Below are positions 1 through 41,633 of a DNA stretch of 64,000 bases, one piece after another. Numbering within the stretch: position 1 is the stretch's first letter; each line of letters opens with the position of its first letter. The translations under genes were made by a program, and so were the position numbers. The notes under the pieces are model-generated. The model did no database searches, had not been told where the DNA came from, and was given only the letters and a program-made list of their open reading frames with translations. The stretch spans positions 99,865-163,864 of the forward strand of contig CAXHJY010000212.1 in the NCBI GenBank assembly GCA_964016885.1, read 5' to 3'. Source of the stretch: Eledone cirrhosa (taxonomy: Eukaryota).

Positions 1-102
1 CTTTGTTGACAAACAAACGAACAAAGCGGCCGGCGTTATAATAAACGTCGGCTAAACTGATGCGTGCATATATGTATGTGTACCTGTATGCATATGTGTG
101 TA

Positions 103-151
<49 letters not shown>

Positions 152-307
152 GCATGCTACTGTACGTCTGTATACATATATGTATGTACGTATACATACA
201 TACTTACATTTAAGTAAGTGCCATACTAAGAGTGAGAAATGAAATTTCGTTTTCATTTTTTTCAATTTATCGTTTTCGGTATGCCTGACCGATTTAACTC
301 ACTCAAT

Positions 308-315
308 ATGCAAAT
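308..315 (+). promoter_or_regulatory. Octamer motif ATGCAAAT (one per monomer)
   Basis: Exact match to the POU/Oct binding site in each monomer; function not shown. Confidence 0.4.
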
Positions 316-364
316 TAGGCTGCTCAGCCGTTAATTTTCATAAGGAAAGTATATACTTTCGAAC

Positions 365-451
365 GTTCAACTATCTGGCAGATGGGTAAACGGTGCTGAT
401 GATAGCTAACAAGCTTGAAACTAGTACATCGTTCCTGTGTCAGTGTTGAAC
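365..451 (+). ncRNA. Type I hammerhead ribozyme (first copy; one per monomer)
   Basis: Helix I: AACGGTG 389-395 with CATCGTT 427-433, extended by TGGG 383-386/CCTG 434-437, CTGGCA 375-380/TGTCAG 438-443 and GTTCAAC 365-371/GTTGAAC 445-451. Core CTGATGA 396-402; helix II AGCT-aaca-AGCT 404-415; GAAA 417-420; palindromic CTAG 421-424; GTA triplet with predicted cleavage after 426. Confidence 0.9.
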
Positions 452-612
452 AAAAAGGTGACGTGGTTGCCTTAACACCGTATGGCATAAATTCAGGCTG
501 TTCGCTTTGTTGACAAACAAACGAACAAAGCGGCCGGCGTTATAATAAACGTCGGCTAAACTGATGCGTGCATATATGTATGTGTACCTGTATGCATATG
601 TGTGTATATATG

Positions 613-649
<37 letters not shown>

Positions 650-1104
650 GCATGCTACTGTACGTCTGTATACATATATGTATGTACGTATACATACATA
701 CTTACATTTAAGTAAGTGCCATACTAAGAGTGAGAAATGAAATTTCGTTTTCATTTTTTTCAATTTATCGTTTTCGGTATGCCTGACCGATTTAACTCAC
801 TCAATATGCAAATTAGGCTGCTCAGCCGTTAATTTTCATAAGGAAAGTATATACTTTCGAACGTTCAACTATCTGGCAGATGGGTAAACGGTGCTGATGA
901 TAGCTAACAAGCTTGAAACTAGTACATCGTTCCTGTGTCAGTGTTGAACAAAAAGGTGACGTGGTTGCCTTAACACCGTATGGCATAAATTCAGGCTGTT
1001 CGCTTTGTTGACAAACAAACGAACAAAGCGGCCGGCGTTATAATAAACGTCGGCTAAACTGATGCGTGCATATATGTATGTGTACCTGTATGCATATGTG
1101 TGTA

Positions 1105-1155
<51 letters not shown>

Positions 1156-1616
1156 GCATGCTACTGTACGTCTGTATACATATATGTATGTACGTATACA
1201 TACATACTTACATTTAAGTAAGTGCCATACTAAGAGTGAGAAATGAAATTTCGTTTTCATTTTTTTCAATTTATCGTTTTCGGTATGCCTGACCGATTTA
1301 ACTCACTCAATATGCAAATTAGGCTGCTCAGCCGTTAATTTTCATAAGGAAAGTATATACTTTCGAACGTTCAACTATCTGGCAGATGGGTAAACGGTGC
1401 TGATGATAGCTAACAAGCTTGAAACTAGTACATCGTTCCTGTGTCAGTGTTGAACAAAAAGGTGACGTGGTTGCCTTAACACCGTATGGCATAAATTCAG
1501 GCTGTTCGCTTTGTTGACAAACAAACGAACAAAGCGGCCGGCGTTATAATAAACGTCGGCTAAACTGATGCGTGCATATATGTATGTGTACCTGTATGCA
1601 TATGTGTGTATATATG

Positions 1617-1654
<38 letters not shown>

Positions 1655-2116
1655 TGCATGCTACTGTACGTCTGTATACATATATGTATGTACGTATACA
1701 TACATACTTACATTTAAGTAAGTGCCATACTAAGAGTGAGAAATGAAATTTCGTTTTCATTTTTTTCAATTTATCGTTTTCGGTATGCCTGACCGATTTA
1801 ACTCACTCAATATGCAAATTAGGCTGCTCAGCCGTTAATTTTCATAAGGAAAGTATATACTTTCGAACGTTCAACTATCTGGCAGATGGGTAAACGGTGC
1901 TGATGATAGCTAACAAGCTTGAAACTAGTACATCGTTCCTGTGTCAGTGTTGAACAAAAAGGTGACGTGGTTGCCTTAACACCGTATGGCATAAATTCAG
2001 GCTGTTCGCTTTGTTGACAAACAAACGAACAAAGCGGCCGGCGTTATAATAAACGTCGGCTAAACTGATGCGTGCATATATGTATGTGTACCTGTATGCA
2101 TATGTGTGTATATATG

Positions 2117-2154
<38 letters not shown>

Positions 2155-2616
2155 TGCATGCTACTGTACGTCTGTATACATATATGTATGTACGTATACA
2201 TACATACTTACATTTAAGTAAGTGCCATACTAAGAGTGAGAAATGAAATTTCGTTTTCATTTTTTTCAATTTATCGTTTTCGGTATGCCTGACCGATTTA
2301 ACTCACTCAATATGCAAATTAGGCTGCTCAGCCGTTAATTTTCATAAGGAAAGTATATACTTTCGAACGTTCAACTATCTGGCAGATGGGTAAACGGTGC
2401 TGATGATAGCTAACAAGCTTGAAACTAGTACATCGTTCCTGTGTCAGTGTTGAACAAAAAGGTGACGTGGTTGCCTTAACACCGTATGGCATAAATTCAG
2501 GCTGTTCGCTTTGTTGACAAACAAACGAACAAAGCGGCCGGCGTTATAATAAACGTCGGCTAAACTGATGCGTGCATATATGTATGTGTACCTGTATGCA
2601 TATGTGTGTATATATG

Positions 2617-2653
<37 letters not shown>

Positions 2654-3113
2654 GCATGCTACTGTACGTCTGTATACATATATGTATGTACGTATACATA
2701 CATACTTACATTTAAGTAAGTGCCATACTAAGAGTGAGAAATGAAATTTCGTTTTCATTTTTTTCAATTTATCGTTTTCGGTATGCCTGACCGATTTAAC
2801 TCACTCAATATGCAAATTAGGCTGCTCAGCCGTTAATTTTCATAAGGAAAGTATATACTTTCGAACGTTCAACTATCTGGCAGATGGGTAAACGGTGCTG
2901 ATGATAGCTAACAAGCTTGAAACTAGTACATCGTTCCTGTGTCAGTGTTGAACAAAAAGGTGACGTGGTTGCCTTAACACCGTATGGCATAAATTCAGGC
3001 TGTTCGCTTTGTTGACAAATAAACGACAAAGCGGCCGGCGTTATAATAAACGTCGGCTAAACTGATGCGTGCATATATGTATGTGTACCTGTATGCATAT
3101 GTGTGTATATATG

Positions 3114-3160
<47 letters not shown>

Positions 3161-3621
3161 GCATGCTACTGTACGTCTGTATACATATATGTATGTACGT
3201 ATACATACATACTTACATTTAAGTAAGTGCCATACTAAGAGTGAGAAATGAAATTTCGTTTTCATTTTTTTCAATTTATCGTTTTCGGTATGCCTGACCG
3301 ATTTAACTCACTCAATATGCAAATTAGGCTGCTCAGCCGTTAATTTTCATAAGGAAAGTATATACTTTCGAACGTTCAACTATCTGGCAGATGGGTAAAC
3401 GGTGCTGATGATAGCTAACAAGCTTGAAACTAGTACATCGTTCCTGTGTCAGTGTTGAACAAAAAGGTGACGTGGTTGCCTTAACACCGTATGGCATAAA
3501 TTCAGGCTGTTCGCTTTGTTGACAAACAAACGAACAAAGCGGCCGGCGTTATAATAAACGTCGGCTAAACTGATGCGTGCATATATGTATGTGTACCTGT
3601 ATGCATATGTGTGTATATATG

Positions 3622-3658
<37 letters not shown>

Positions 3659-4113
3659 GCATGCTACTGTACGTCTGTATACATATATGTATGTACGTAT
3701 ACATACATACTTACATTTAAGTAAGTGCCATACTAAGAGTGAGAAATGAAATTTCGTTTTCATTTTTTTCAATTTATCGTTTTCGGTATGCCTGACCGAT
3801 TTAACTCACTCAATATGCAAATTAGGCTGCTCAGCCGTTAATTTTCATAAGGAAAGTATATACTTTCGAACGTTCAACTATCTGGCAGATGGGTAAACGG
3901 TGCTGATGATAGCTAACAAGCTTGAAACTAGTACATCGTTCCTGTGTCAGTGTTGAACAAAAAGGTGACGTGGTTGCCTTAACACCGTATGGCATAAATT
4001 CAGGCTGTTCGCTTTGTTGACAAACAAACGAACAAAGCGGCCGGCGTTATAATAAACGTCGGCTAAACTGATGCGTGCATATATGTATGTGTACCTGTAT
4101 GCATATGTGTGTA

Positions 4114-4164
<51 letters not shown>

Positions 4165-4619
4165 GCATGCTACTGTACGTCTGTATACATATATGTATGT
4201 ACGTATACATACATACTTACATTTAAGTAAGTGCCATACTAAGAGTGAGAAATGAAATTTCGTTTTCATTTTTTTCAATTTATCGTTTTCGGTATGCCTG
4301 ACCGATTTAACTCACTCAATATGCAAATTAGGCTGCTCAGCCGTTAATTTTCATAAGGAAAGTATATACTTTCGAACGTTCAACTATCTGGCAGATGGGT
4401 AAACGGTGCTGATGATAGCTAACAAGCTTGAAACTAGTACATCGTTCCTGTGTCAGTGTTGAACAAAAAGGTGACGTGGTTGCCTTAACACCGTATGGCA
4501 TAAATTCAGGCTGTTCGCTTTGTTGACAAACAAACGAACAAAGCGGCCGGCGTTATAATAAACGTCGGCTAAACTGATGCGTGCATATATGTATGTGTAC
4601 CTGTATGCATATGTGTGTA

Positions 4620-4670
<51 letters not shown>

Positions 4671-5131
4671 GCATGCTACTGTACGTCTGTATACATATAT
4701 GTATGTACGTATACATACATACTTACATTTAAGTAAGTGCCATACTAAGAGTGAGAAATGAAATTTCGTTTTCATTTTTTTCAATTTATCGTTTTCGGTA
4801 TGCCTGACCGATTTAACTCACTCAATATGCAAATTAGGCTGCTCAGCCGTTAATTTTCATAAGGAAAGTATATACTTTCGAACGTTCAACTATCTGGCAG
4901 ATGGGTAAACGGTGCTGATGATAGCTAACAAGCTTGAAACTAGTACATCGTTCCTGTGTCAGTGTTGAACAAAAAGGTGACGTGGTTGCCTTAACACCGT
5001 ATGGCATAAATTCAGGCTGTTCGCTTTGTTGACAAACAAACGAACAAAGCGGCCGGCGTTATAATAAACGTCGGCTAAACTGATGCGTGCATATATGTAT
5101 GTGTACCTGTATGCATATGTGTGTATATATG

Positions 5132-5168
<37 letters not shown>

Positions 5169-5623
5169 GCATGCTACTGTACGTCTGTATACATATATGT
5201 ATGTACGTATACATACATACTTACATTTAAGTAAGTGCCATACTAAGAGTGAGAAATGAAATTTCGTTTTCATTTTTTTCAATTTATCGTTTTCGGTATG
5301 CCTGACCGATTTAACTCACTCAATATGCAAATTAGGCTGCTCAGCCGTTAATTTTCATAAGGAAAGTATATACTTTCGAACGTTCAACTATCTGGCAGAT
5401 GGGTAAACGGTGCTGATGATAGCTAACAAGCTTGAAACTAGTACATCGTTCCTGTGTCAGTGTTGAACAAAAAGGTGACGTGGTTGCCTTAACACCGTAT
5501 GGCATAAATTCAGGCTGTTCGCTTTGTTGACAAACAAACGAACAAAGCGGCCGGCGTTATAATAAACGTCGGCTAAACTGATGCGTGCATATATGTATGT
5601 GTACCTGTATGCATATGTGTGTA

Positions 5624-5672
<49 letters not shown>

Positions 5673-6127
5673 GCATGCTACTGTACGTCTGTATACATAT
5701 ATGTATGTACGTATACATACATACTTACATTTAAGTAAGTGCCATACTAAGAGTGAGAAATGAAATTTCGTTTTCATTTTTTTCAATTTATCGTTTTCGG
5801 TATGCCTGACCGATTTAACTCACTCAATATGCAAATTAGGCTGCTCAGCCGTTAATTTTCATAAGGAAAGTATATACTTTCGAACGTTCAACTATCTGGC
5901 AGATGGGTAAACGGTGCTGATGATAGCTAACAAGCTTGAAACTAGTACATCGTTCCTGTGTCAGTGTTGAACAAAAAGGTGACGTGGTTGCCTTAACACC
6001 GTATGGCATAAATTCAGGCTGTTCGCTTTGTTGACAAACAAACGAACAAAGCGGCCGGCGTTATAATAAACGTCGGCTAAACTGATGCGTGCATATATGT
6101 ATGTGTACCTGTATGCATATGTGTGTA

Positions 6128-6178
<51 letters not shown>

Positions 6179-6639
6179 GCATGCTACTGTACGTCTGTAT
6201 ACATATATGTATGTACGTATACATACATACTTACATTTAAGTAAGTGCCATACTAAGAGTGAGAAATGAAATTTCGTTTCCATTTTTTTCAATTTATCGT
6301 TTTCGGTATGCCTGACCGATTTAACTCACTCAATATGCAAATTAGGCTGCTCAGCCGTTAATTTTCATAAGGAAAGTATATACTTTCGAACGTTCAACTA
6401 TCTGGCAGATGGGTAAACGGTGCTGATGATAGCTAACAAGCTTGAAACTAGTACATCGTTCCTGTGTCAGTGTTGAACAAAAAGGTGACGTGGTTGCCTT
6501 AACACCGTATGGCATAAATTCAGGCTGTTCGCTTTGTTGACAAACAAACGAACAAAGCGGCCGGCGTTATAATAAACGTCGGCTAAACTGATGCGTGCAT
6601 ATATGTATGTGTACCTGTATGCATATGTGTGTATATATG

Positions 6640-6676
<37 letters not shown>

Positions 6677-7137
6677 GCATGCTACTGTACGTCTGTATAC
6701 ATATATGTATGTACGTATACATACATACTTACATTTAAGTAAGTGCCATACTAAGAGTGAGAAATGAAATTTCGTTTTCATTTTTTTCAATTTATCGTTT
6801 TCGGTATGCCTGACCGATTTAACTCACTCAATATGCAAATTAGGCTGCTCAGCCGTTAATTTTCATAAGGAAAGTATATACTTTCGAACGTTCAACTATC
6901 TGGCAGATGGGTAAACGGTGCTGATGATAGCTAACAAGCTTGAAACTAGTACATCGTTCCTGTGTCAGTGTTGAACAAAAAGGTGACGTGGTTGCCTTAA
7001 CACCGTATGGCATAAATTCAGGCTGTTCGCTTTGTTGACAAACAAACGAACAAAGCGGCCGGCGTTATAATAAACGTCGGCTAAACTGATGCGTGCATAT
7101 ATGTATGTGTACCTGTATGCATATGTGTGTATATATG

Positions 7138-7175
<38 letters not shown>

Positions 7176-7631
7176 TGCATGCTACTGTACGTCTGTATAC
7201 ATATATGTATGTACGTATACATACATACTTACATTTAAGTAAGTGCCATACTAAGAGTGAGAAATGAAATTTCGTTTTCATTTTTTTCAATTTATCGTTT
7301 TCGGTATGCCTGACCGATTTAACTCACTCAATATGCAAATTAGGCTGCTCAGCCGTTAATTTTCATAAGGAAAGTATATACTTTCGAACGTTCAACTATC
7401 TGGCAGATGGGTAAACGGTGCTGATGATAGCTAACAAGCTTGAAACTAGTACATCGTTCCTGTGTCAGTGTTGAACAAAAAGGTGACGTGGTTGCCTTAA
7501 CACCGTATGGCATAAATTCAGGCTGTTCGCTTTGTTGACAAACAAACGAACAAAGCGGCCGGCGTTATAATAAACGTCGGCTAAACTGATGCGTGCATAT
7601 ATGTATGTGTACCTGTATGCATATGTGTGTA

Positions 7632-7684
<53 letters not shown>

Positions 7685-8145
7685 GCATGCTACTGTACGT
7701 CTGTATACATATATGTATGTACGTATACATACATACTTACATTTAAGTAAGTGCCATACTAAGAGTGAGAAATGAAATTTCGTTTTCATTTTTTTCAATT
7801 TATCGTTTTCGGTATGCCTGACCGATTTAACTCACTCAATATGCAAATTAGGCTGCTCAGCCGTTAATTTTCATAAGGAAAGTATATACTTTCGAACGTT
7901 CAACTATCTGGCAGATGGGTAAACGGTGCTGATGATAGCTAACAAGCTTGAAACTAGTACATCGTTCCTGTGTCAGTGTTGAACAAAAAGGTGACGTGGT
8001 TGCCTTAACACCGTATGGCATAAATTCAGGCTGTTCGCTTTGTTGACAAACAAACGAACAAAGCGGCCGGCGTTATAATAAACGTCGGCTAAACTGATGC
8101 GTGCATATATGTATGTGTACCTGTATGCATATGTGTGTATATATG

Positions 8146-8182
<37 letters not shown>

Positions 8183-8637
8183 GCATGCTACTGTACGTCT
8201 GTATACATATATGTATGTACGTATACATACATACTTACATTTAAGTAAGTGCCATACTAAGAGTGAGAAATGAAATTTCGTTTTCATTTTTTTCAATTTA
8301 TCGTTTTCGGTATGCCTGACCGATTTAACTCACTCAATATGCAAATTAGGCTGCTCAGCCGTTAATTTTCATAAGGAAAGTATATACTTTCGAACGTTCA
8401 ACTATCTGGCAGATGGGTAAACGGTGCTGATGATAGCTAACAAGCTTGAAACTAGTACATCGTTCCTGTGTCAGTGTTGAACAAAAAGGTGACGTGGTTG
8501 CCTTAACACCGTATGGCATAAATTCAGGCTGTTCGCTTTGTTGACAAATAAACGAACAAAGCGGCCGGCGTTATAATAAACGTCGGCTAAACTGATGCGT
8601 GCATATATGTATGTGTACCTGTATGCATATGTGTGTA

Positions 8638-8692
<55 letters not shown>

Positions 8693-9161
8693 GCATGCTA
8701 CTGTACGTCTGTATACATATATGTATGTACGTATACATACATACTTACATTTAAGTAAGTGCCATACTAAGAGTGAGAAATGAAATTTCGTTTTCATTTT
8801 TTTCAATTTATCGTTTTCGGTATGCCTGACCGATTTAACTCACTCAATATGCAAATTAGGCTGCTCAGCCGTTAATTTTCATAAGGAAAGTATATACTTT
8901 CGAACGTTCAACTATCTGGCAGATGGGTAAACGGTGCTGATGATAGCTAACAAGCTTGAAACTAGTACATCGTTCCTGTGTCAGTGTTGAACAAAAAGGT
9001 GACGTGGTTGCCTTAACACCGTATGGCATAAATTCAGGCTGTTCGCTTTGTTGACAAACAAACGAACAAAGCGGCCGGCGTTATAATAAACGTCGGCTAA
9101 ACTGATGCGTGCATATATGTATGTGTACCTGTATGCATATGTGTGTATATATGTATTTTTT

Positions 9162-9200
<39 letters not shown>

Positions 9201-9661
9201 GCATGCTACTGTACGTCTGTATACATATATGTATGTACGTATACATACATACTTACATTTAAGTAAGTGCCATACTAAGAGTGAGAAATGAAATTTCGTT
9301 TTCATTTTTTTCAATTTATCGTTTTCGGTATGCCTGACCGATTTAACTCACTCAATATGCAAATTAGGCTGCTCAGCCGTTAATTTTCATAAGGAAAGTA
9401 TATACTTTCGAACGTTCAACTATCTGGCAGATGGGTAAACGGTGCTGATGATAGCTAACAAGCTTGAAACTAGTACATCGTTCCTGTGTCAGTGTTGAAC
9501 AAAAAGGTGACGTGGTTGCCTTAACACCGTATGGCATAAATTCAGGCTGTTCGCTTTGTTGACAAACAAACGAACAAAGCGGCCGGCGTTATAATAAACG
9601 TCGGCTAAACTGATGCGTGCATATATGTATGTGTACCTGTATGCATATGTGTGTATATATG

Positions 9662-9698
<37 letters not shown>

Positions 9699-10153
9699 GC
9701 ATGCTACTGTACGTCTGTATACATATATGTATGTACGTATACATACATACTTACATTTAAGTAAGTGCCATACTAAGAGTGAGAAATGAAATTTCGTTTT
9801 CATTTTTTTCAATTTATCGTTTTCGGTATGCCTGACCGATTTAACTCACTCAATATGCAAATTAGGCTGCTCAGCCGTTAATTTTCATAAGGAAAGTATA
9901 TACTTTCGAACGTTCAACTATCTGGCAGATGGGTAAACGGTGCTGATGATAGCTAACAAGCTTGAAACTAGTACATCGTTCCTGTGTCAGTGTTGAACAA
10001 AAAGGTGACGTGGTTGCCTTAACACCGTATGGCATAAATTCAGGCTGTTCGCTTTGTTGACAAACAAACGAACAAAGCGGCCGGCGTTATAATAAACGTC
10101 GGCTAAACTGATGCGTGCATATATGTATGTGTACCTGTATGCATATGTGTGTA

Positions 10154-10204
<51 letters not shown>

Positions 10205-10659
10205 GCATGCTACTGTACGTCTGTATACATATATGTATGTACGTATACATACATACTTACATTTAAGTAAGTGCCATACTAAGAGTGAGAAATGAAATTT
10301 CGTTTTCATTTTTTTCAATTTATCGTTTTCGGTATGCCTGACCGATTTAACTCACTCAATATGCAAATTAGGCTGCTCAGCCGTTAATTTTCATAAGGAA
10401 AGTATATACTTTCGAACGTTCAACTATCTGGCAGATGGGTAAACGGTGCTGGTGATAGCTAACAAGCTTGAAACTAGTACATCGTTCCTGTGTCAGTGTT
10501 GAACAAAAAGGTGACGTGGTTGCCTTAACACCGTATGGCATAAATTCAGGCTGTTCGCTTTGTTGACAAACAAACGAACAAAGCGGCCGGCGTTATAATA
10601 AACGTCGGCTAAACTGATGCGTGCATATATGTATGTGTACCTGTATGCATATGTGTGTA

Positions 10660-10712
<53 letters not shown>

Positions 10713-11167
10713 GCATGCTACTGTACGTCTGTATACATATATGTATGTACGTATACATACATACTTACATTTAAGTAAGTGCCATACTAAGAGTGAGAAA
10801 TGAAATTTCGTTTTCATTTTTTTCAATTTATCGTTTTCGGTATGCCTGACCGATTTAACTCACTCAATATGCAAATTAGGCTGCTCAGCCGTTAATTTTC
10901 ATAAGGAAAGTATATACTTTCGAACGTTCAACTATCTGGCAGATGGGTAAACGGTGCTGATGATAGCTAACAAGCTTGAAACTAGTACATCGTTCCTGTG
11001 TCAGTGTTGAACAAAAAGGTGACGTGGTTGCCTTAACACCGTATGGCATAAATTCAGGCTGTTCGCTTTGTTGACAAACAAACGAACAAAGCGGCCGGCG
11101 TTATAATAAACGTCGGCTAAACTGATGCGTGCATATATGTATGTGTACCTGTATGCATATGTGTGTA

Positions 11168-11218
<51 letters not shown>

Positions 11219-11673
11219 GCATGCTACTGTACGTCTGTATACATATATGTATGTACGTATACATACATACTTACATTTAAGTAAGTGCCATACTAAGAGT
11301 GAGAAATGAAATTTCGTTTTCATTTTTTTCAATTTATCGTTTTCGGTATGCCTGACCGATTTAACTCACTCAATATGCAAATTAGGCTGCTCAGCCGTTA
11401 ATTTTCATAAGGAAAGTATATACTTTCGAACGTTCAACTATCTGGCAGATGGGTAAACGGTGCTGATGATAGCTAACAAGCTTGAAACTAGTACATCGTT
11501 CCTGTGTCAGTGTTGAACAAAAAGGTGACGTGGTTGCCTTAACACCGTATGGCATAAATTCAGGCTGTTCGCTTTGTTGACAAACAAACGAACAAAGCGG
11601 CCGGCGTTATAATAAACGTCGGCTAAACTGATGCGTGCATATATGTATGTGTACCTGTATGCATATGTGTGTA

Positions 11674-11728
<55 letters not shown>

Positions 11729-12183
11729 GCATGCTACTGTACGTCTGTATACATATATGTATGTACGTATATATACATACTTACATTTAAGTAAGTGCCA
11801 TACTAAGAGTGAGAAATGAAATTTCGTTTTCATTTTTTTCAATTTATCGTTTTCGGTATGCCTGACCGATTTAACTCACTCAATATGCAAATTAGGCTGC
11901 TCAGCCGTTAATTTTCATAAGGAAAGTATATACTTTCGAACGTTCAACTATCTGGCAGATGGGTAAACGGTGCTGATGATAGCTAACAAGCTTGAAACTA
12001 GTACATCGTTCCTGTGTCAGTGTTGAACAAAAAGGTGACGTGGTTGCCTTAACACCGTATGGCATAAATTCAGGCTGTTCGGTTTGTTGACAAACAAACG
12101 AACAAAGCGGCCGGCGTTATAATAAACGTCGGCTAAACTGATGCGTGCATATATGTATGTGTACCTGTATGCATATGTGTGTA

Positions 12184-12232
<49 letters not shown>

Positions 12233-12693: not shown

Positions 12694-12734
<41 letters not shown>

Positions 12735-13195: not shown

Positions 13196-13236
<41 letters not shown>

Positions 13237-13697: not shown

Positions 13698-13736
<39 letters not shown>

Positions 13737-14197: not shown

Positions 14198-14258
<61 letters not shown>

Positions 14259-27883: not shown

Positions 27884-27934
<51 letters not shown>

Positions 27935-28395: not shown

Positions 28396-28435
<40 letters not shown>

Positions 28436-28891: not shown

Positions 28892-28942
<51 letters not shown>

Positions 28943-29397: not shown

Positions 29398-29450
<53 letters not shown>

Positions 29451-29911
29451 GCATGCTACTGTACGTCTGTATACATATATGTATGTACGTATACATACAT
29501 ACTTACATTTAAGTAAGTGCCATACTAAGAGTGAGAAATGAAATTTCGTTTTCATTTTTTTCAATTTATCGTTTTCGGTATGCCTGACCGATTTAACTCA
29601 CTCAATATGCAAATTAGGCTGCTCAGCCGTTAATTTTCATAAGGAAAGTATATACTTTCGAACGTTCAACTATCTGGCAGATGGGTAAACGGTGCTGATG
29701 ATAGCTAACAAGCTTGAAACTAGTACATCGTTCCTGTGTCAGTGTTGAACAAAAAGGTGACGTGGTTGCCTTAACACCGTATGGCATAAATTCAGGCTGT
29801 TCGCTTTGTTGACAAACAAACGAACAAAGCGGCCGGCGTTATAATAAACGTCGGCTAAACTGATGCGTGCATATATGTATGTGTACCTGTATGCATATGT
29901 GTGTATATATG

Positions 29912-29948
<37 letters not shown>

Positions 29949-30403
29949 GCATGCTACTGTACGTCTGTATACATATATGTATGTACGTATACATACATAC
30001 TTACATTTAAGTAAGTGCCATACTAAGAGTGAGAAATGAAATTTCGTTTTCATTTTTTTCAATTTATCGTTTTCGGTATGCCTGACCGATTTAACTCACT
30101 CAATATGCAAATTAGGCTGCTCAGCTGTTAATTTTCATAAGGAAAGTATATACTTTCGAACGTTCAACTATCTGGCAGATGGGTAAACGGTGCTGATGAT
30201 AGCTAACAAGCTTGAAACTAGTACATCGTTCCTGTGTCAGTGTTGAACAAAAAGGTGACGTGGTTGCCTTAACACCGTATGGCATAAATTCAGGCTGTTC
30301 GCTTTGTTGACAAACAAACGAACAAAGCGGCCGGCGTTATAATAAACGTCGGCTAAACTGATGCGTGCATATATGTATGTGTACCTGTATGCATATGTGT
30401 GTA

Positions 30404-30454
<51 letters not shown>

Positions 30455-30915
30455 GCATGCTACTGTACGTCTGTATACATATATGTATGTACGTATACAT
30501 ACATACTTACATTTAAGTAAGTGCCATACTAAGAGTGAGAAATGAAATTTCGTTTTCATTTTTTTCAATTTATCGTTTTCGGTATGCCTGACCGATTTAA
30601 CTCACTCAATATGCAAATTAGGCTGCTCAGCCGTTAATTTTCATAAGGAAAGTATATACTTTCGAACGTTCAACTATCTGGCAGATGGGTAAACGGTGCT
30701 GATGATAGCTAACAAGCTTGAAACTAGTACATCGTTCCTGTGTCAGTGTTGAACAAAAAGGTGACGTGGTTGCCTTAACACCGTATGGCATAAATTCAGG
30801 CTGTTCGCTTTGTTGACAAACAAACGAACAAAGCGGCCGGCGTTATAATAATCGTCGGCTAAACTGATGCGTGCATATATGTATGTGTACCTGTATGCAT
30901 ATGTGTGTATATATG

Positions 30916-30957
<42 letters not shown>

Positions 30958-31423
30958 TATATGCATGCTACTGTACGTCTGTATACATATATGTATGTAC
31001 GTATACATACATACTTACATTTAAGTAAGTGCCATACTAAGAGTGAGAAATGAAATTTCGTTTTCATTTTTTTCAATTTATCGTTTTCGGTATGCCTGAC
31101 CGATTTAACTCACTCAATATGCAAATTAGGCTGCTCAGCCGTTAATTTTCATAAGGAAAGTATATACTTTCGAACGTTCAACTATCTGGCAGATGGGTAA
31201 ACGGTGCTGATGATAGCTAACAAGCTTGAAACTAGTACATCGTTCCTGTGTCAGTGTTGAACAAAAAGGTGACGTGGTTGCCTTAACACCGTATGGCATA
31301 AATTCAGGCTGTTCGCTTTGTTGACAAACAAACGAACAAAGCGGCCGGCGTTATAATAAACGTCGGCTAAACTGATGCGTGCATATATGTATGTGTACCT
31401 GTATGCATATGTGTGTATATATG

Positions 31424-31463
<40 letters not shown>

Positions 31464-31919
31464 TGCATGCTACTGTACGTCTGTATACATATATGTATGT
31501 ACGTATACATACATACTTACATTTAAGTAAGTGCCATACTAAGAGTGAGAAATGAAATTTCGTTTTCATTTTTTTCAATTTATCGTTTTCGGTATGCCTG
31601 ACCGATTTAACTCACTCAATATGCAAATTAGGCTGCTCAGCCGTTAATTTTCATAAGGAAAGTATATACTTTCGAACGTTCAACTATCTGGCAGATGGGT
31701 AAACGGTGCTGATGATAGCTAACAAGCTTGAAACTAGTACATCGTTCCTGTGTCAGTGTTGAACAAAAAGGTGACGTGGTTGCCTTAACACCGTATGGCA
31801 TAAATTCAGGCTGTTCGCTTTGTTGACAAACAAACGAACAAAGCGGCCGGCGTTATAATAAACGTCGGCTAAACTGATGCGTGCATATATGTATGTGTAC
31901 CTGTATGCATATGTGTGTA

Positions 31920-31970
<51 letters not shown>

Positions 31971-32425
31971 GCATGCTACTGTACGTCTGTATACATATAT
32001 GTATGTACGTATACATACATACTTACATTTAAGTAAGTGCCATACTAAGAGTGAGAAATGAAATTTCGTTTTCATTTTTTTCAATTTATCGTTTTCGGTA
32101 TGCCTGACCGATTTAACTCACTCAATATGCAAATTAGGCTGCTCAGCCGTTAATTTTCATAAGGAAAGTATATACTTTCGAACGTTCAACTATCTGGCAG
32201 ATGGGTAAACGGTGCTGATGATAGCTAACAAGCTTGAAACTAGTACATCGTTCCTGTGTCAGTGTTGAACAAAAAGGTGACGTGGTTGCCTTAACACCGT
32301 ATGGCATAAATTCAGGCTGTTCGCTTTGTTGACAAACAAACGAACAAAGCGGCCGGCGTTATAATAAACGTCGGCTAAACTGATGCGTGCATATATGTAT
32401 GTGTACCTGTATGCATATGTGTGTA

Positions 32426-32478
<53 letters not shown>

Positions 32479-32939
32479 GCATGCTACTGTACGTCTGTAT
32501 ACATATATGTATGTACGTATACATACATACTTACATTTAAGTAAGTGCCATACTAAGAGTGAGAAATGAAATTTCGTTTTCATTTTTTTCAATTTATCGT
32601 TTTCGGTATGCCTGACCGATTTAACTCACTCAATATGCAAATTAGGCTGCTCAGCCGTTAATTTTCATAAGGAAAGTATATACTTTCGAACGTTCAACTA
32701 TCTGGCAGATGGGTAAACGGTGCTGATGATAGCTAACAAGCTTGAAACTAGTACATCGTTCCTGTGTCAGTGTTGAACAAAAAGGTGACGTGGTTGCCTT
32801 AACACCGTATGGCATAAATTCAGGCTGTTCGCTTTGTTGACAAACAAACGAACAAAGCGGCCGGCGTTATAATAAACGTCGGCTAAACTGATGCGTGCAT
32901 ATATGTATGTGTACCTGTATGCATATGTGTGTATATATG

Positions 32940-32976
<37 letters not shown>

Positions 32977-33431
32977 GCATGCTACTGTACGTCTGTATAC
33001 ATATATGTATGTACGTATACATACATACTTACATTTAAGTAAGTGCCATACTAAGAGTGAGAAATGAAATTTCGTTTTCATTTTTTTCAATTTATCGTTT
33101 TCGGTATGCCTGACCGATTTAACTCACTCAATATGCAAATTAGGCTGCTCAGCTGTTAATTTTCATAAGGAAAGTATATACTTTCGAACGTTCAACTATC
33201 TGGCAGATGGGTAAACGGTGCTGATGATAGCTAACAAGCTTGAAACTAGTACATCGTTCCTGTGTCAGTGTTGAACAAAAAGGTGACGTGGTTGCCTTAA
33301 CACCGTATGGCATAAATTCAGGCTGTTCGCTTTGTTGACAAACAAACGAACAAAGCGGCCGGCGTTATAATAAACGTCGGCTAAACTGATGCGTGCATAT
33401 ATGTATGTGTACCTGTATGCATATGTGTGTA

Positions 33432-33482
<51 letters not shown>

Positions 33483-33943
33483 GCATGCTACTGTACGTCT
33501 GTATACATATATGTATGTACGTATACATACATACTTACATTTAAGTAAGTGCCATACTAAGAGTGAGAAATGAAATTTCGTTTTCATTTTTTTCAATTTA
33601 TCGTTTTCGGTATGCCTGACCGATTTAACTCACTCAATATGCAAATTAGGCTGCTCAGCCGTTAATTTTCATAAGGAAAGTATATACTTTCGAACGTTCA
33701 ACTATCTGGCAGATGGGTAAACGGTGCTGATGATAGCTAACAAGCTTGAAACTAGTACATCGTTCCTGTGTCAGTGTTGAACAAAAAGGTGACGTGGTTG
33801 CCTTAACACCGTATGGCATAAATTCAGGCTGTTCGCTTTGTTGACAAACAAACGAACAAAGCGGCCGGCGTTATAATAAACGTCGGCTAAACTGATGCGT
33901 GCATATATGTATGTGTACCTGTATGCATATGTGTGTATATATG

Positions 33944-33980
<37 letters not shown>

Positions 33981-34435
33981 GCATGCTACTGTACGTCTGT
34001 ATACATATATGTATGTACGTATACATACATACTTACATTTAAGTAAGTGCCATACTAAGAGTGAGAAATGAAATTTCGTTTTCATTTTTTTCAATTTATC
34101 GTTTTCGGTATGCCTGACCGATTTAACTCACTCAATATGCAAATTAGGCTGCTCAGCCGTTAATTTTCATAAGGAAAGTATATACTTTCGAACGTTCAAC
34201 TATCTGGCAGATGGGTAAACGGTGCTGATGATAGCTAACAAGCTTGAAACTAGTACATCGTTCCTGTGTCAGTGTTGAACAAAAAGGTGACGTGGTTGCC
34301 TTAACACCGTATGGCATAAATTCAGGCTGTTCGCTTTGTTGACAAACAAACGAACAAAGCGGCCGGCGTTATAATAAACGTCGGCTAAACTGATGCGTGC
34401 ATATATGTATGTGTACCTGTATGCATATGTGTGTA

Positions 34436-34488
<53 letters not shown>

Positions 34489-34943
34489 GCATGCTACTGT
34501 ACGTCTGTATACATATATGTATGTACGTATACATACATACTTACATTTAAGTAAGTGCCATACTAAGAGTGAGAAATGAAATTTCGTTTTCATTTTTTTC
34601 AATTTATCGTTTTCGGTATGCCTGACCGATTTAACTCACTCAATATGCAAATTAGGCTGCTCAGCCGTTAATTTTCATAAGGAAAGTATATACTTTCGAA
34701 CGTTCAACTATCTGGCAGTTGGGTAAACGGTGCTGATGATAGCTAACAAGCTTGAAACTAGTACATCGTTCCTGTGTCAGTGTTGAACAAAAAGGTGACG
34801 TGGTTGCCTTAACACCGTATGGCATAAATTCAGGCTGTTCGCTTTGTTGACAAATAAACGAACAAAGCGGCCGGCGTTATAATAAACGTCGGCTAAACTG
34901 ATGCGTGCATATATGTATGTGTACCTGTATGCATATGTGTGTA

Positions 34944-34998
<55 letters not shown>

Positions 34999-35459
34999 GC
35001 ATGCTACTGTACGTCTGTATACATATATGTATGTACGTATACATACATACTTACATTTAAGTAAGTGCCATACTAAGAGTGAGAAATGAAATTTCGTTTT
35101 CATTTTTTTCAATTTATCGTTTTCGGTATGCCTGACCGATTTAACTCACTCAATATGCAAATTAGGCTGCTCAGCCGTTAATTTTCATAAGGAAAGTATA
35201 TACTTTCGAACGTTCAACTATCTGGCAGATGGGTAAACGGTGCTGATGATAGCTAACAAGCTTGAAACTAGTACATCGTTCCTGTGTCAGTGTTGAACAA
35301 AAAGGTGACGTGGTTGCCTTAACACCGTATGGCATAAATTCAGGCTGTTCGCTTTGTTGACAAACAAACGAACAAAGCGGCCGGCGTTATAATAAACGTC
35401 GGCTAAACTGATGCGTGCATATATGTATGTGTACCTGTATGCATATGTGTGTATATATG

Positions 35460-35501
<42 letters not shown>

Positions 35502-35967
35502 TATATGCATGCTACTGTACGTCTGTATACATATATGTATGTACGTATACATACATACTTACATTTAAGTAAGTGCCATACTAAGAGTGAGAAATGAAAT
35601 TTCGTTTTCATTTTTTTCAATTTATCGTTTTCGGTATGCCTGACCGATTTAACTCACTCAATATGCAAATTAGGCTGCTCAGCCGTTAATTTTCATAAGG
35701 AAAGTATATACTTTCGAACGTTCAACTATCTGGCAGATGGGTAAACGGTGCTGATGATAGCTAACAAGCTTGAAACTAGTACATCGTTCCTGTGTCAGTG
35801 TTGAACAAAAAGGTGACGTGGTTGCCTTAACACCGTATGGCATAAATTCAGGCTGTTCGCTTTGTTGACAAACAAACGAACAAAGCGGCCGGCGTTATAA
35901 TAAACGTCGGCTAAACTGATGCGTGCATATATGTATGTGTACCTGTATGCATATGTGTGTATATATG

Positions 35968-36004
<37 letters not shown>

Positions 36005-36459
36005 GCATGCTACTGTACGTCTGTATACATATATGTATGTACGTATACATACATACTTACATTTAAGTAAGTGCCATACTAAGAGTGAGAAATGAAATTT
36101 CGTTTTCATTTTTTTCAATTTATCGTTTTCGGTATGCCTGACCGATTTAACTCACTCAATATGCAAATTAGGCTGCTCAGCCGTTAATTTTCATAAGGAA
36201 AGTATATACTTTCGAACGTTCAACTATCTGGCAGATGGGTAAACGGTGCTGATGATAGCTAACAAGCTTGAAACTAGTACATCGTTCCTGTGTCAGTGTT
36301 GAACAAAAAGGTGACGTGGTTGCCTTAACACCGTATGGCATAAATTCAGGCTGTTCGCTTTGTTGACAAACAAACGAACAAAGCGGCCGGCGTTATAATA
36401 AACGTCGGCTAAACTGATGCGTGCATATATGTATGTGTACCTGTATGCATATGTGTGTA

Positions 36460-36510
<51 letters not shown>

Positions 36511-36971
36511 GCATGCTACTGTACGTCTGTATACATATATGTATGTACGTATACATACATACTTACATTTAAGTAAGTGCCATACTAAGAGTGAGAAATG
36601 AAATTTCGTTTTCATTTTTTTCAATTTATCGTTTTCGGTATGCCTGACCGATTTAACTCACTCAATATGCAAATTAGGCTGCTCAGCCGTTAATTTTCAT
36701 AAGGAAAGTATATACTTTCGAACGTTCAACTATCTGGCAGATGGGTAAACGGTGCTGATGATAGCTAACAAGCTTGAAACTAGTACATCGTTCCTGTGTC
36801 AGTGTTGAACAAAAAGGTGACGTGGTTGCCTTAACACCGTATGGCATAAATTCAGGCTGTTCGCTTTGTTGACAAACAAACGAACAAAGCGGCCGGCGTT
36901 ATAATAAACGTCGGCTAAACTGATGCGTGCATATATGTATGTGTACCTGTATGCATATGTGTGTATATATG

Positions 36972-37008
<37 letters not shown>

Positions 37009-37941
37009 GCATGCTACTGTACGTCTGTATACATATATGTATGTACGTATACATACATACTTACATTTAAGTAAGTGCCATACTAAGAGTGAGAAATGAA
37101 ATTTCGTTTTCATTTTTTTCAATTTATCGTTTTCGGTATGCCTGACCGATTTAACTCACTCAATATGCAAATTAGGCTGCTCAGCCGTTAATTTTCATAA
37201 GGAAAGTATATACTTTCGAACGTTCAACTATCTGGCAGATGGGTAAACGGTGCTGATGATAGCTAACAAGCTTGAAACTAGTACATCGTTCCTGTGTCAG
37301 TGTTGAACAAAAAGGTGACGTGGTTGCCTTAACACCGTATGGCATAAATTCAGGCTGTTCGCTTTGTTGACAAACAAACGAACAAAGCGGCCGGCGTTAT
37401 AATAAACGTCGGCTAAACTGATGCGTGCATATATGTATGTGTACCTGTATGCATATGTGTGTATATATGTATATATATATATATATGCATGCTACTGTAC
37501 GTCTGTATACATATATGTATGTACGTATACATACATACTTACATTTAAGTAAGTGCCATACTAAGAGTGAGAAATGAAATTTCGTTTTCATTTTTTTCAA
37601 TTTATCGTTTTCGGTATGCCTGACCGATTTAACTCACTCAATATGCAAATTAAGCTGCTCAGCCGTTAATTTTCATAAGGAAAGTATATACTTTCGAACG
37701 TTCAACTATCTGGCAGATGGGTAAACGGTGCTGATGATAGCTAACAAGCTTGAAACTAGTACATCGTTCCTGTGTCAGTGTTGAACAAAAAGGTGACGTG
37801 GTTGCCTTAACACCGTATGGCATAAATTCAGGCTGTTCGCTTTGTTGACAAACAAACGAACAAAGCGGCCGGCGTTATAATAAACGTCGGCTAAACTGAT
37901 GCGTGCATATATGTATGTGTACCTGTATGCATATGTGTGTA

Positions 37942-37990
<49 letters not shown>

Positions 37991-38445
37991 GCATGCTACT
38001 GTACGTCTGTATACATATATGTATGTACGTATATATACATACTTACATTTAAGTAAGTGCCATACTAAGAGTGAGAAATGAAATTTCGTTTTCATTTTTT
38101 TCAATTTATCGTTTTCGGTATGCCTGACCGATTTAACTCACTCAATATGCAAATTAGGCTGCTCAGCCGTTAATTTTCATAAGGAAAGTATATACTTTCG
38201 AACGTTCAACTATCTGGCAGATGGGTAAACGGTGCTGATGATAGCTAACAAGCTTGAAACTAGTACATCGTTCCTGTGTCAGTGTTGAACAAAAAGGTGA
38301 CGTGGTTGCCTTAACACCGTATGGCATAAATTCAGGCTGTTCGCTTTGTTGACAAACAAACGAACAAAGCGGCCGGCGTTATAATAAACGTCGGCTAAAC
38401 TGATGCGTGCATATATGTATGTGTACCTGTATGCATATGTGTGTA

Positions 38446-38497
<52 letters not shown>

Positions 38498-38953
38498 TGC
38501 ATGCTACTGTACGTCTGTATACATATATGTATGTACGTATACATACATACTTACATTTAAGTAAGTGCCATACTAAGAGTGAGAAATGAAATTTCGTTTT
38601 CATTTTTTTCAATTTATCGTTTTCGGTATGCCTGACCGATTTAACTCACTCAATATGCAAATTAGGCTGCTCAGCCGTTAATTTTCATAAGGAAAGTATA
38701 TACTTTCGAACGTTCAACTATCTGGCAGATGGGTAAACGGTGCTGATGATAGCTAACAAGCTTGAAACTAGTACATCGTTCCTGTGTCAGTGTTGAACAA
38801 AAAGGTGACGTGGTTGCCTTAACACCGTATGGCATAAATTCAGGCTGTTCGCTTTGTTGACAAACAAACGAACAAAGCGGCCGGCGTTATAATAAACGTC
38901 GGCTAAACTGATGCGTGCATATATGTATGTGTACCTGTATGCATATGTGTGTA

Positions 38954-39011
<58 letters not shown>

Positions 39012-39473
39012 TGCATGCTACTGTACGTCTGTATACATATATGTATGTACGTATACATACATACTTACATTTAAGTAAGTGCCATACTAAGAGTGAGAAA
39101 TGAAATTTCGTTTTCATTTTTTTCAATTTATCGTTTTCGGTATGCCTGACCGATTTAACTCACTCAATATGCAAATTAGGCTGCTCAGCCGTTAATTTTC
39201 ATAAGGAAAGTATATACTTTCGAACGTTCAACTATCTGGCAGATGGGTAAACGGTGCTGATGATAGCTAACAAGCTTGAAACTAGTACATCGTTCCTGTG
39301 TCAGTGTTGAACAAAAAGGTGACGTGGTTGCCTTAACACCGTATGGCATAAATTCAGGCTGTTCGCTTTGTTGACAAACAAACGAACAAAGCGGCCGGCG
39401 TTATAATAAACGTCGGCTAAACTGATGCGTGCATATATGTATGTGTACCTGTATGCATATGTGTGTATATATG

Positions 39474-39507
<34 letters not shown>

Positions 39508-39971
39508 TATGCATGCTACTGTACGTCTGTATACATATATGTATGTACGTATACATACATACTTACATTTAAGTAAGTGCCATACTAAGAGTGAGAAATG
39601 AAATTTCGTTTTCATTTTTTTCAATTTATCGTTTTCGGTATGCCTGACCGATTTAACTCACTCAATATGCAAATTAGGCTGCTCAGCCGTTAATTTTCAT
39701 AAGGAAAGTATATACTTTCGAACGTTCAACTATCTGGCAGATGGGTAAACGGTGCTGATGATAGCTAACAAGCTTGAAACTAGTACATCGTTCCTGTGTC
39801 AGTGTTGAACAAAAAGGTGACGTGGTTGCCTTAACACCGTATGGCATAAATTCAGGCTGTTCGCTTTGTTGACAAACAAACGAACAAAGCGGCCGGCGTT
39901 ATAATAATCGTCGGCTAAACTGATGCGTGCATATATGTATGTGTACCTGTATGCATATGTGTGTATATATG

Positions 39972-40013
<42 letters not shown>

Positions 40014-40479
40014 TATATGCATGCTACTGTACGTCTGTATACATATATGTATGTACGTATACATACATACTTACATTTAAGTAAGTGCCATACTAAGAGT
40101 GAGAAATGAAATTTCGTTTTCATTTTTTTCAATTTATCGTTTTCGGTATGCCTGACCGATTTAACTCACTCAATATGCAAATTAGGCTGCTCAGCCGTTA
40201 ATTTTCATAAGGAAAGTATATACTTTCGAACGTTCAACTATCTGGCAGATGGGTAAACGGTGCTGATGATAGCTAACAAGCTTGAAACTAGTACATCGTT
40301 CCTGTGTCAGTGTTGAACAAAAAGGTGACGTGGTTGCCTTAACACCGTATGGCATAAATTCAGGCTGTTCGCTTTGTTGACAAACAAACGAACAAAGCGG
40401 CCGGCGTTATAATAAACGTCGGCTAAACTGATGCGTGCATATATGTATGTGTACCTGTATGCATATGTGTGTATATATG

Positions 40480-40518
<39 letters not shown>

Positions 40519-40731
40519 GCATGCTACTGTACGTCTGTATACATATATGTATGTACGTATACATACATACTTACATTTAAGTAAGTGCCATACTAAGAGT
40601 GAGAAATGAAATTTCGTTTTCATTTTTCTCAATTTATCGTTTTCGGTATGCCTGACCGATTTAACTCACTCAATATGCAAATTAGGCTGCTCAGCCGTTA
40701 ATTTTCATAAGGAAAGTATATACTTTCGAAC

Positions 40732-40818
40732 GTTCAACTATCTGGCAGATGGGTAAACGGTGCTGATGATAGCTAACAAGCTTGAAACTAGTACATCGTT
40801 CCTGTGTCAGTGTTGAAC
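40732..40818 (+). ncRNA. Type I hammerhead ribozyme (last copy in the array)
   Basis: Identical to 365-451; CTGATGA starts at 40763. Confidence 0.9.
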
Positions 40819-40979
40819 AAAAAGGTGACGTGGTTGCCTTAACACCGTATGGCATAAATTCAGGCTGTTCGCTTTGTTGACAAACAAACGAACAAAGCGG
40901 CCGGCGTTATAATAAACGTCGGCTAAACTGATGCGTGCATATATGTATGTGTACCTGTATGCATATGTGTGTATATATG

Positions 40980-41020
<41 letters not shown>

Positions 41021-41633
41021 GCATGCTACTGTACGTCTGTATACATATATGTATGTACGTATACATACATACTTACATTTAAGTAAGTGCCATACTAAGA
41101 GTGAGAAATGAAATTTCGTTTTCATTTTTTTCAATTTATCGTTTTCGGTATGCCTGACCGATTTAACTCACTCAATATGCAAATTAGGCTGTTAGCAGCA
41201 GCAAGATATAAGCTGACCACTACAACAACAACAGTACCAAAATAATGGTCGAGGTCAAATGTACTGAACAATAGCAGGCATAAACACTACAGGGAGCCTC
41301 ACCCCAGAAAGAATTCTATAGACTTCTGACGGAGGAATGCTCTCAGAACTGAACAATGGGAAGTTTGACACATTTTTTGATATTTTGTTCCTTCAACACC
41401 TTGTCCCTTCTACCATTTTATCAATTTTTAAGCTAACTCCAACAATGACAACACTAATAACTGACCAATGAGAGGAGAAGGGGACCTGTGACACTAAAAT
41501 TCGTTTGTTTGAATTCATATGACTCCAGTTCCCCAGTGAATTAACAACCCAACAAGGAACTGGGCATATCAGAGTATTGACAATATCATACACCTAAACA
41601 ACATATGTACTTGTCTATACCATACTAATTCAA

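What the first reader, a model, noticed from the sequence alone, without database searches (positions are those of the whole stretch)
1..41191. A >41-kb satellite whose every ~500-bp monomer encodes a type I hammerhead ribozyme (retrozyme-like array)
Seen: each monomer contains AACGGTG-CTGATGA-T-AGCT aaca AGCT-T-GAAA-CTAG-TA-CATCGTT, a full hammerhead core with helices I and II paired and a GUA triplet; 81 copies, same orientation, near-identical. Known: type I hammerheads in tandem repeats occur in newt satellite 2, Schistosoma Sm-alpha, Dolichopoda pDo500 and metazoan non-LTR retrozymes, where multimeric transcripts self-cleave to monomers that can circularise. Inference: this is such a system, possibly an undescribed family in a cephalopod-like genome, producing ~500-nt monomer or circular RNAs that begin at CATCGTT (position 427). 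It encodes no protein and would need an RT in trans to spread.
Basis: partly seen in the sequence, partly recalled or inferred. Interest (0 to 1): 0.92.

Follow-up and report, generated by a model that had tools for sequence, protein, structure and literature searches.

The report
Self-cutting RNA repeat riding Penelope retrotransposons
This 50-kb satellite is one large array of a self-cleaving RNA repeat family (a retrozyme) scattered through an octopus-like genome, and the ends of its scattered copies match those left by Penelope-like retrotransposons, which points to the enzyme that copies it and to where copying starts.

Summary
In detail: the window has 81 head-to-tail ~500-bp units, each with a type I hammerhead (80 intact). 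The array extends left to 99 units (50 kb). It is not an isolated satellite: 10,391 exact ribozyme cores lie across the genome, mostly in short arrays beside (TA)n. These insertions almost never end at the cleavage site (3 forward-strand matches). They end at two fixed internal sites about 60 nt apart, A (1,503) and B (1,549). Head-to-head two-armed insertions pair one A end with one B end (27 of 27 clean cases; one B+B exception elsewhere). Young Hydra-clade Penelope-like elements (PLEs) in this genome leave the same A+B ends, one abuts this array, and two insertions are direct PLE–retrozyme chimeras. So this is a non-LTR retrozyme family, most likely copied in trans by a Hydra-clade PLE enzyme that starts internally; this array then grew by DNA duplication. 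Cleavage, expression and circular RNA were not shown. The class is known. I found no report of a cephalopod family or of end-signature evidence for the partner enzyme.

The parts
1..41191 (+). Tandem array of retrozyme units (81 hammerhead copies here; 99 in the whole 50-kb array, which starts about 8.8 kb left of the window with a short inverted arm ending at site A)
427..924 (+). One predicted monomer RNA, cut site to cut site (498 nt), branched fold closed by the extended helix I
   Evidence: (z -6.1 against shuffles with the microsatellite left out)
365..451 (+). Type I hammerhead: helix I 389-395 with 427-433 (extended 365-451), core 396-402 and 417-420, helix II 404-415 with U.U at its base, palindromic helix III 420-425, predicted cut after 426
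563..697 (+). Internal (TA)n microsatellite inside a long hairpin; source of nearly all unit-length variation
701..710 (+). Site A: fixed tail-less 3' end of dispersed insertions (inferred reverse-transcription start 1), in the loop of a small hairpin
708..768 (+). ~60-nt 'tail' between sites A and B, present on one arm only of two-armed insertions
761..768 (+). Site B: fixed tailed 3' end of dispersed insertions (inferred reverse-transcription start 2)
10442..10486 (+). The one unit with a mutated core (CUGGUGA), probably inactive
41189..41191 (+). 3-nt microhomology (CTG) joining the array to the PLE1 fragment
41192..41740 (+). Tail-less 3' end of a young Hydra-clade PLE (PLE1), followed by (TA)n; full copies elsewhere encode an 892-aa RT plus GIY-YIG protein
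41634..41688 (+). PLE1's own minimal-type hammerhead (read by eye; not detected by Rfam)

Best explanation
A non-autonomous non-LTR retrozyme mobilised by Hydra-clade PLE proteins. Steps: (1) tandem units are transcribed on the + strand [inferred]; (2) neighbouring hammerheads fold as dimers through the ACUAGU palindrome, cut after GUA and release ~420-540-nt monomers that host ligase can circularise [inferred from characterised retrozymes]; (3) a PLE RT/GIY-YIG protein nicks (TA)n and primes reverse transcription at two internal sites, A and B, using 2-4 nt of TA-like microhomology [the ends are shown; the enzyme is inferred]; (4) each primed strand copies from part of a unit to more than ten units, passing the cut site repeatedly, and the two 5'-truncated cDNAs join head to head, one ending at A and one at B [structure shown; circle versus uncut multimer unresolved]; (5) this locus was seeded by such an insertion, then grew to 99 units by DNA-level block duplication, and lost its own B end to a junction with a PLE1 fragment [blocks and junction shown; order inferred].
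For: 10,391 exact 36-nt cores, reversed-pattern control 0; 26,312 with sister subfamilies. Forward-strand ends followed by TA: A 1,503, B 1,549, cut site 3. 77 of 83 arms have a TA run within 30 nt of the 3' end, while 5' ends fall all round the unit. A+B in 27 of 27 clean two-armed loci out of 71 examined, and in 23 of 24 divergent pairs from the pattern lists (overlapping sample); the 24th proved to be two separate A+B insertions. The same rule holds for PLE1 in 14 of 14 clean two-armed loci and for PLE2 in 3 of 3. PLE1 has the Hydra motifs RWK, DKT and CxCX5C. Two chimeras join PLE2 coding sequence directly to retrozyme units, are bounded by TA runs and are A+B (L047/L199 and L044/L201). 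Units of one insertion differ by about 1.0-1.1%, against 4.4% between loci. Helix I keeps pairing through double changes between subfamilies. Repeated variant blocks lie along the array.
Against: No cleavage assay, transcript or circle is in hand. The U.U base of helix II and the 2-bp helix III predict weak monomer activity. Only 1 of 9 Xenopus retrozyme dimers cleaved in vitro. A Poseidon PLE used uncut RNA as its main template in vitro. No sequence homology was found between the monomer and PLE1 or the 2.6-kb piece of PLE2, so the exact partner family is unknown. Exceptions: L009 is B+B, five arms end at a third site near unit position 90-95, and this array itself is A+A if the PLE1 end is counted. 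The chimeras could be nested insertions followed by deletion. The double changes reflect few independent events: 193 of 500 shuffles reach 8 such pairs.
Confidence: 0.8

Rival explanations
1. Same PLE mobilisation, but the template is an uncut linear multimer read from existing arrays; the hammerhead is slow, protein-assisted or incidental, and circles are not the intermediate. This rival replaces steps 2 and 4 only.
For: Ends ignore the cut site; hammerhead mutants did not affect insertion by the anole PLE protein; long homogeneous arrays such as this one could supply multimers; only 4 locus-private variants fixed across all units were found, in 3 of 16 loci with three or more units.
Against: In L034 two variants private among 50 sampled loci are in all 7 units of both arms, as expected from repeated copying of one unit. 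The core changes only at the tolerated N7 and in loop 2 between subfamilies, which suggests selection on cleavage.
Confidence: 0.3
2. The unit is an ordinary satellite or a Helitron/MITE-like DNA element with an internal microsatellite, spread through DNA, and the hammerhead is a relic.
For: Hairpins and an internal (TA)n also occur in such elements (recalled); the big array clearly grew at DNA level; Rfam support is weak.
Against: 5' ends are variable and 3' ends fixed; the tail sits on one arm only, as in autonomous PLEs of this genome; direct fusions to PLE coding sequence exist; G.U pairs are kept across subfamilies, which fits RNA.
Confidence: 0.05
3. The family is real, but the 50-kb length of this one array is inflated by misassembly.
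For: It lies on a 164-kb unplaced contig; units are about 99.9% alike outside the microsatellite and blocks of units recur.
Against: Both junctions are distinct and sit in non-array sequence; many units carry their own variants; arrays of 11-15 or more units occur on chromosome-scale contigs.
Confidence: 0.12

Closest known systems
Metazoan non-LTR retrozymes of coral, mussel and axolotl (Cervera and de la Pena 2020, PMC7229834)
   Same: Tandem non-coding units with a canonical type I hammerhead, GC below 50%, thousands of copies, self-paired fold; axolotl HHR_Amex2 also has a U.U at the base of helix II and needs dimers.
   Different: The unit is longer (420-540 against 170-400 nt) and holds a (TA)n hairpin. 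Here the ends are mapped to two PLE-type sites; that paper only proposes PLEs as candidates and mentions TSDs. RNA and circles were shown there, not here.
Vertebrate retrozymes as PLE derivatives (Li, Clavereau and Pollet, bioRxiv 10.64898/2026.07.22.740005)
   Same: Argues for PLE dependence; reports arrays of up to 180-300 units, so 99 units is not exceptional.
   Different: Its evidence is co-occurrence and pLTR homology, with no mollusc sampled and no mention of tails or TPRT in the main text. Here no pLTR homology was found to the two PLEs tested, but ends and chimeras were.
Hydra-clade Penelope-like elements (Craig et al. 2021, PMC8557442)
   Same: (TA)n targeting, hammerheads, inverted 5'-truncated second arm, tail often at one end only.
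   Different: The retrozyme encodes nothing; tails here are ~60 nt (retrozyme) and ~97-100 nt (PLE1, PLE2) against 30-40 bp described; the one-A-one-B pairing is counted here.
Poseidon PLE of the green anole in vitro (Frangieh et al. 2024, PMC11167929)
   Same: Two internal RT start sites bracket the tail; both DNA strands are nicked and extended at AT-rich sites; a dimer is predicted.
   Different: Another clade, acting on its own RNA; no strand difference in start site was seen there, whereas the genomic arms here take different sites.
Newt satellite 2, Schistosoma Sm-alpha, Dolichopoda pDo500 (details recalled, not checked)
   Same: Satellite DNA encoding type I hammerheads.
   Different: No sequence comparison was possible; those sequences were not at hand.

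Membership tests
Type I hammerhead ribozyme (canonical metazoan form) | CUGANGA and GAAA core, NUH cut site, open helix I | tested here: met
   0 of 20,000 shuffles
Type I hammerhead ribozyme (canonical metazoan form) | Helix I about 6 bp, helix II 4 bp, helix III 1-2 bp with small palindromic loop (PMC4209133) | tested here: met
   6-7, 4 and 2 bp, palindrome ACUAGU
Type I hammerhead ribozyme (canonical metazoan form) | G10.1-C11.1 pair at the base of helix II | tested here: not met
   U.U instead; the same variant is described as active, mainly as a dimer, in axolotl HHR_Amex2
Rfam hammerhead families | Score above gathering threshold | tested here: not met
   HH9 18.5 bits against 52; Hammerhead_1 not listed
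Type I hammerhead ribozyme (canonical metazoan form) | Mg2+-dependent self-cleavage | not testable with these tools
   needs in vitro transcription
Non-LTR retrozyme | Tandem non-coding units each with a type I hammerhead, GC under 50% | tested here: met
   GC about 0.35; absence of coding judged from the sequence, ORFs not listed for the array
Non-LTR retrozyme | Dispersed multi-copy family, dimers to multimers | tested here: met
Non-LTR retrozyme | Highly self-paired monomer RNA | tested here: met
   z -6.1 without the microsatellite; 98.8% of cells paired over 30 units, few independent double changes
Non-LTR retrozyme | Expressed as linear and circular monomer RNA | not testable with these tools
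   no run on record as RNA was offered
Non-LTR retrozyme | Target-site duplication, when present | tested here: inconclusive
   flanks are (TA)n on both sides, so a TSD cannot be read
PLE-mobilised element | Fixed 3' end, variable 5' truncation, inverted second arm, tail on one end | tested here: met
PLE-mobilised element | Sequence homology to a PLE pseudo-LTR | tested here: inconclusive
   none to PLE1 or to the PLE2 piece; other PLE families were not screened
Hydra-clade PLE (for neighbour PLE1) | Single ORF with RT and C-terminal GIY-YIG; RWK, DKT and CxCX5C motifs; (TA)n target | tested here: met
   motifs read in the translation against the description; conserved in 108 relatives; Pfam itself gave no RT hit on P0001; no tree was built

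The most novel reading that the evidence does not exclude
Hydra-clade PLE protein works as an asymmetric pair that loads two RNA molecules, not necessarily of the same kind. On a doubly nicked (TA)n it primes one strand at site A and the other at site B, and rolls round the ribozyme-made circle many times. The strict A+B rule, the mixed-arm insertions and the PLE-retrozyme chimeras would then be a genomic record of a two-template, two-site integration step, and direct evidence of how animal retrozyme circles get back into DNA.
Probability: 0.35. Interest if true: 0.82.

Novelty: new member of a known kind. Interest (0 to 1): 0.64.

Why it matters
Which reverse transcriptase spreads animal retrozymes has been left open: a 2020 review says their repeats show no motif that would reveal it (PMC7761336), and a 2026 preprint argues from co-occurrence and pLTR similarity. 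Here the insertion ends give a direct signature, a candidate clade with intact genes in the same genome, the target (TA)n and two exact start sites, so the question can be tested in one in vitro reaction. The near-strict one-A-one-B rule also constrains how PLEs build their inverted, one-tailed insertions. The locus shows a retro-insertion turning into a 50-kb satellite.

Tried and rejected
Rfam: no match at gathering level; the many miRNA hits come from the (TA)n hairpin. Expression: no RNA holder listed; the four runs laid are contigs of unknown kind and say nothing on transcription. LINE/SINE-type priming at the 3' end of the cut monomer: rejected, 3 forward matches against about 1,500 each at A and B (reverse-strand counts are inflated by overlapping matches and were not used). 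The PLE fragment beside the array as an old relic: rejected, copies are 99-100% alike. Retrozyme derived from the PLE1 or PLE2 pLTR: no similarity found. My first guess of a Neptune-clade partner: replaced by Hydra on motifs. The short palindromic family X as a truncated hammerhead element: the one pattern tried found 0 matches. A single 50-kb rolling-circle product: disfavoured by repeated variant blocks. Solved-structure search with the PLE1 protein: nothing significant. A dimer prediction for the PLE1 protein was not available, so the dimer idea is untested. Look-ups in earlier findings of this scan returned nothing. Dfam and Repbase could not be searched.
Full report
Observation. The array spans 1-41191 with 81.6 units of about 498 bp. 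It holds 81 hammerhead copies on the + strand, 80 exact and one with a mutated core at 10442. The predicted cut follows GUA at 424-426. A descriptor I wrote finds the motif once in the real unit and in 0 of 20,000 shuffles. Rfam support is weak: HH9 at 18.5 bits, E 0.02, gathering score 52. The ribozyme has a 6-7-bp helix I that extends to about 23 pairs, a 4-bp helix II with U.U at its base, and a 2-bp helix III within a 6-nt palindrome. That matches the described canonical metazoan type I form, which cleaves as a dimer (PMC4209133, passages), and axolotl HHR_Amex2 has the same U.U (PMC7229834, passages).

RNA structure. The circular monomer folds far better than shuffles, z -6.1 with the microsatellite left out. 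Across 30 units from the window-like and sister subfamilies, 98.8% of cells pair over 109 pairs and 8 pairs show double changes, two of them in the extended helix I. These are few independent events, and 193 of 500 shuffles reach 8 pairs, so this supports a conserved fold without proving it.

The family. The window is the end of a 164-kb contig in a 3.0-Gb genome. The whole array has 99 copies over 50 kb. The 36-nt core occurs exactly 10,391 times, control 0, and a looser pattern gives 26,312, adding a sister subfamily with 420-430-bp units. I fetched all 51 clusters listed for the first 70 Mb of contig C1 and 20 loci that I picked from the looser list.

Ends. Arms have 5' ends all round the unit, but 77 of 83 have a TA run at the 3' end, at two main places: site A (window 701-710) and site B (761-768). 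Genome-wide forward-strand counts of ends followed by TA are A 1,503, B 1,549 and cut site 3. Many insertions have two arms joined head to head. Of the 71 loci, 27 have two adjacent arms with both ends clean, and all 27 are one A plus one B (counted by hand from its output). I left out L035 (convergent), L061 and L063 (arms not adjacent), and L047, L050, L056, L081 and L134 (one end unclear); L081 later proved A+B. An overlapping sample from the pattern lists gave 23 A+B of 24, and the odd pair was two separate A+B insertions. Against the rule: L009, from a best-hit list, is B+B, and five arms end at a third site beside the internal microsatellite.

The partner. The 549 bp after the array are the tail-less 3' end of a young element with copies 99-100% alike, joined to the array by a 3-nt microhomology. 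Full copies encode an 892-aa protein with RWK, DKT and CxCX5C motifs, which define the Hydra clade of PLEs, nearly all of which insert into (TA)n (PMC8557442, passages). This PLE1 shows A+B in 14 of 14 clean two-armed loci. A second Hydra-type family, PLE2, shows it in 3 of 3, and a short family X in 23 of 23, though that query forced one B arm. Two insertions fuse PLE2 coding sequence directly to retrozyme units, are bounded by TA runs and are A+B overall. Two more pair a family X A arm with a retrozyme B arm. Nested insertion plus deletion remains possible for these. The monomer has no detectable similarity to PLE1 or the PLE2 piece, so the exact partner family is not identified.

Mechanism. 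In vitro, an anole Poseidon PLE protein nicks both strands at AT-rich sites and starts reverse transcription at two internal sites that bracket the genomic tail (PMC11167929, parts 1-2 of 4). Sites A and B fit this. Arms cross the cut site up to 11-15 or more times, and units within an insertion differ by about 1% against 4.4% between loci. In L034 two private variants are in all 7 units of both arms, but only 3 of 16 multi-unit loci show such variants. A circular template is therefore favoured but not separated from an uncut multimer, which was the main substrate in that in vitro study.

This locus. Its left end is a short inverted arm ending at site A, so it began as an ordinary insertion. 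Variant blocks recur along it, for example copies 51-54 and 67-70, and 61-66 and 84-89, so it grew by DNA duplication. Its right end lacks the expected B site and meets a PLE1 A end, which I read as a later insertion or deletion.

What is known. Non-LTR retrozymes are an established class (PMC7229834, passages and sections 14 and 17), arrays of 180-300 units are reported, and PLE dependence is proposed from co-occurrence and pLTR similarity (bioRxiv 10.64898/2026.07.22.740005, parts 1-3 of 5 and a term search). A review states that no motif reveals the partner (PMC7761336, passages). A tail at one end only is known for PLEs. Nine searches showed no cephalopod retrozyme and no end mapping for any retrozyme; an octopus repeat annotation does not mention ribozymes in its main text (PMC13282606, passages). 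The library lacks most subscription journals, the supplement of PMC7229834 could not be read, the preprint's supplements were not seen, and Dfam and Repbase were not available; any of these could hold this family.

Verdict. A real retrozyme array, a new member of a known kind. Its value lies in the end signature and chimeras, which point to Hydra-clade PLEs as the mobiliser and give exact sites to test. Cleavage, expression, circles and the enzyme's action remain inferred.

Noticed in passing
window 52290-52481, 55121-55331, 58384-58576: Short two-armed palindromic insertions (family X) in (TA)n with an ~85-nt tail on one arm only; a MITE-like passenger of the same machinery. No parent element was found.
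   Followed up: partly
window 41852-42165: Another two-armed insertion (family Y) in (TA)n with a ~35-40-nt tail on one arm, right after the PLE1 end.
   Followed up: no
window 308-315 and every unit: An octamer ATGCAAAT about 80 nt upstream of the hammerhead, kept in most units of both subfamilies. Newt satellite 2 is recalled to use an snRNA-type promoter, but here the motif also lies in a predicted helix, so a promoter role is untested.
   Followed up: no
L042, L049, L053, L061, L068 (unit position ~90-95): A third, minor 3' end beside the internal microsatellite, paired with either A or B arms.
   Followed up: partly
G000:C239:91,038 (first unit of the array): The innermost partial unit carries an allele of another subfamily than the other units, as if the edge kept an older sequence.
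   Followed up: no
L117-L136: Sister subfamily with 420-430-bp units, about 72-84% alike, using the same A and B ends; looks more numerous than the window's own subfamily.
   Followed up: partly
G000:C239:52,421-55,785: A second, two-armed PLE1 insertion on the same contig.
   Followed up: no
window 49680-49860: Two-armed element with a minimal hammerhead-like motif on both arms, probably another PLE end.
   Followed up: no
window 42698-43399 (+) and 44894-45262 (-): ORF fragments that look like a LINE C-terminal region and an RTE-type RT piece (family names recalled, not tested).
   Followed up: no
window 63870-64000: tRNA-derived SINE-like sequence, also seen in flanks of other loci (label recalled, not tested).
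   Followed up: no
L101, L103, L171, L198 and others: Retrozyme and PLE insertions stack in the same TA runs; 13 of 99 retrozyme loci (some overlapping) had PLE protein matches within about 1.5 kb.
   Followed up: partly
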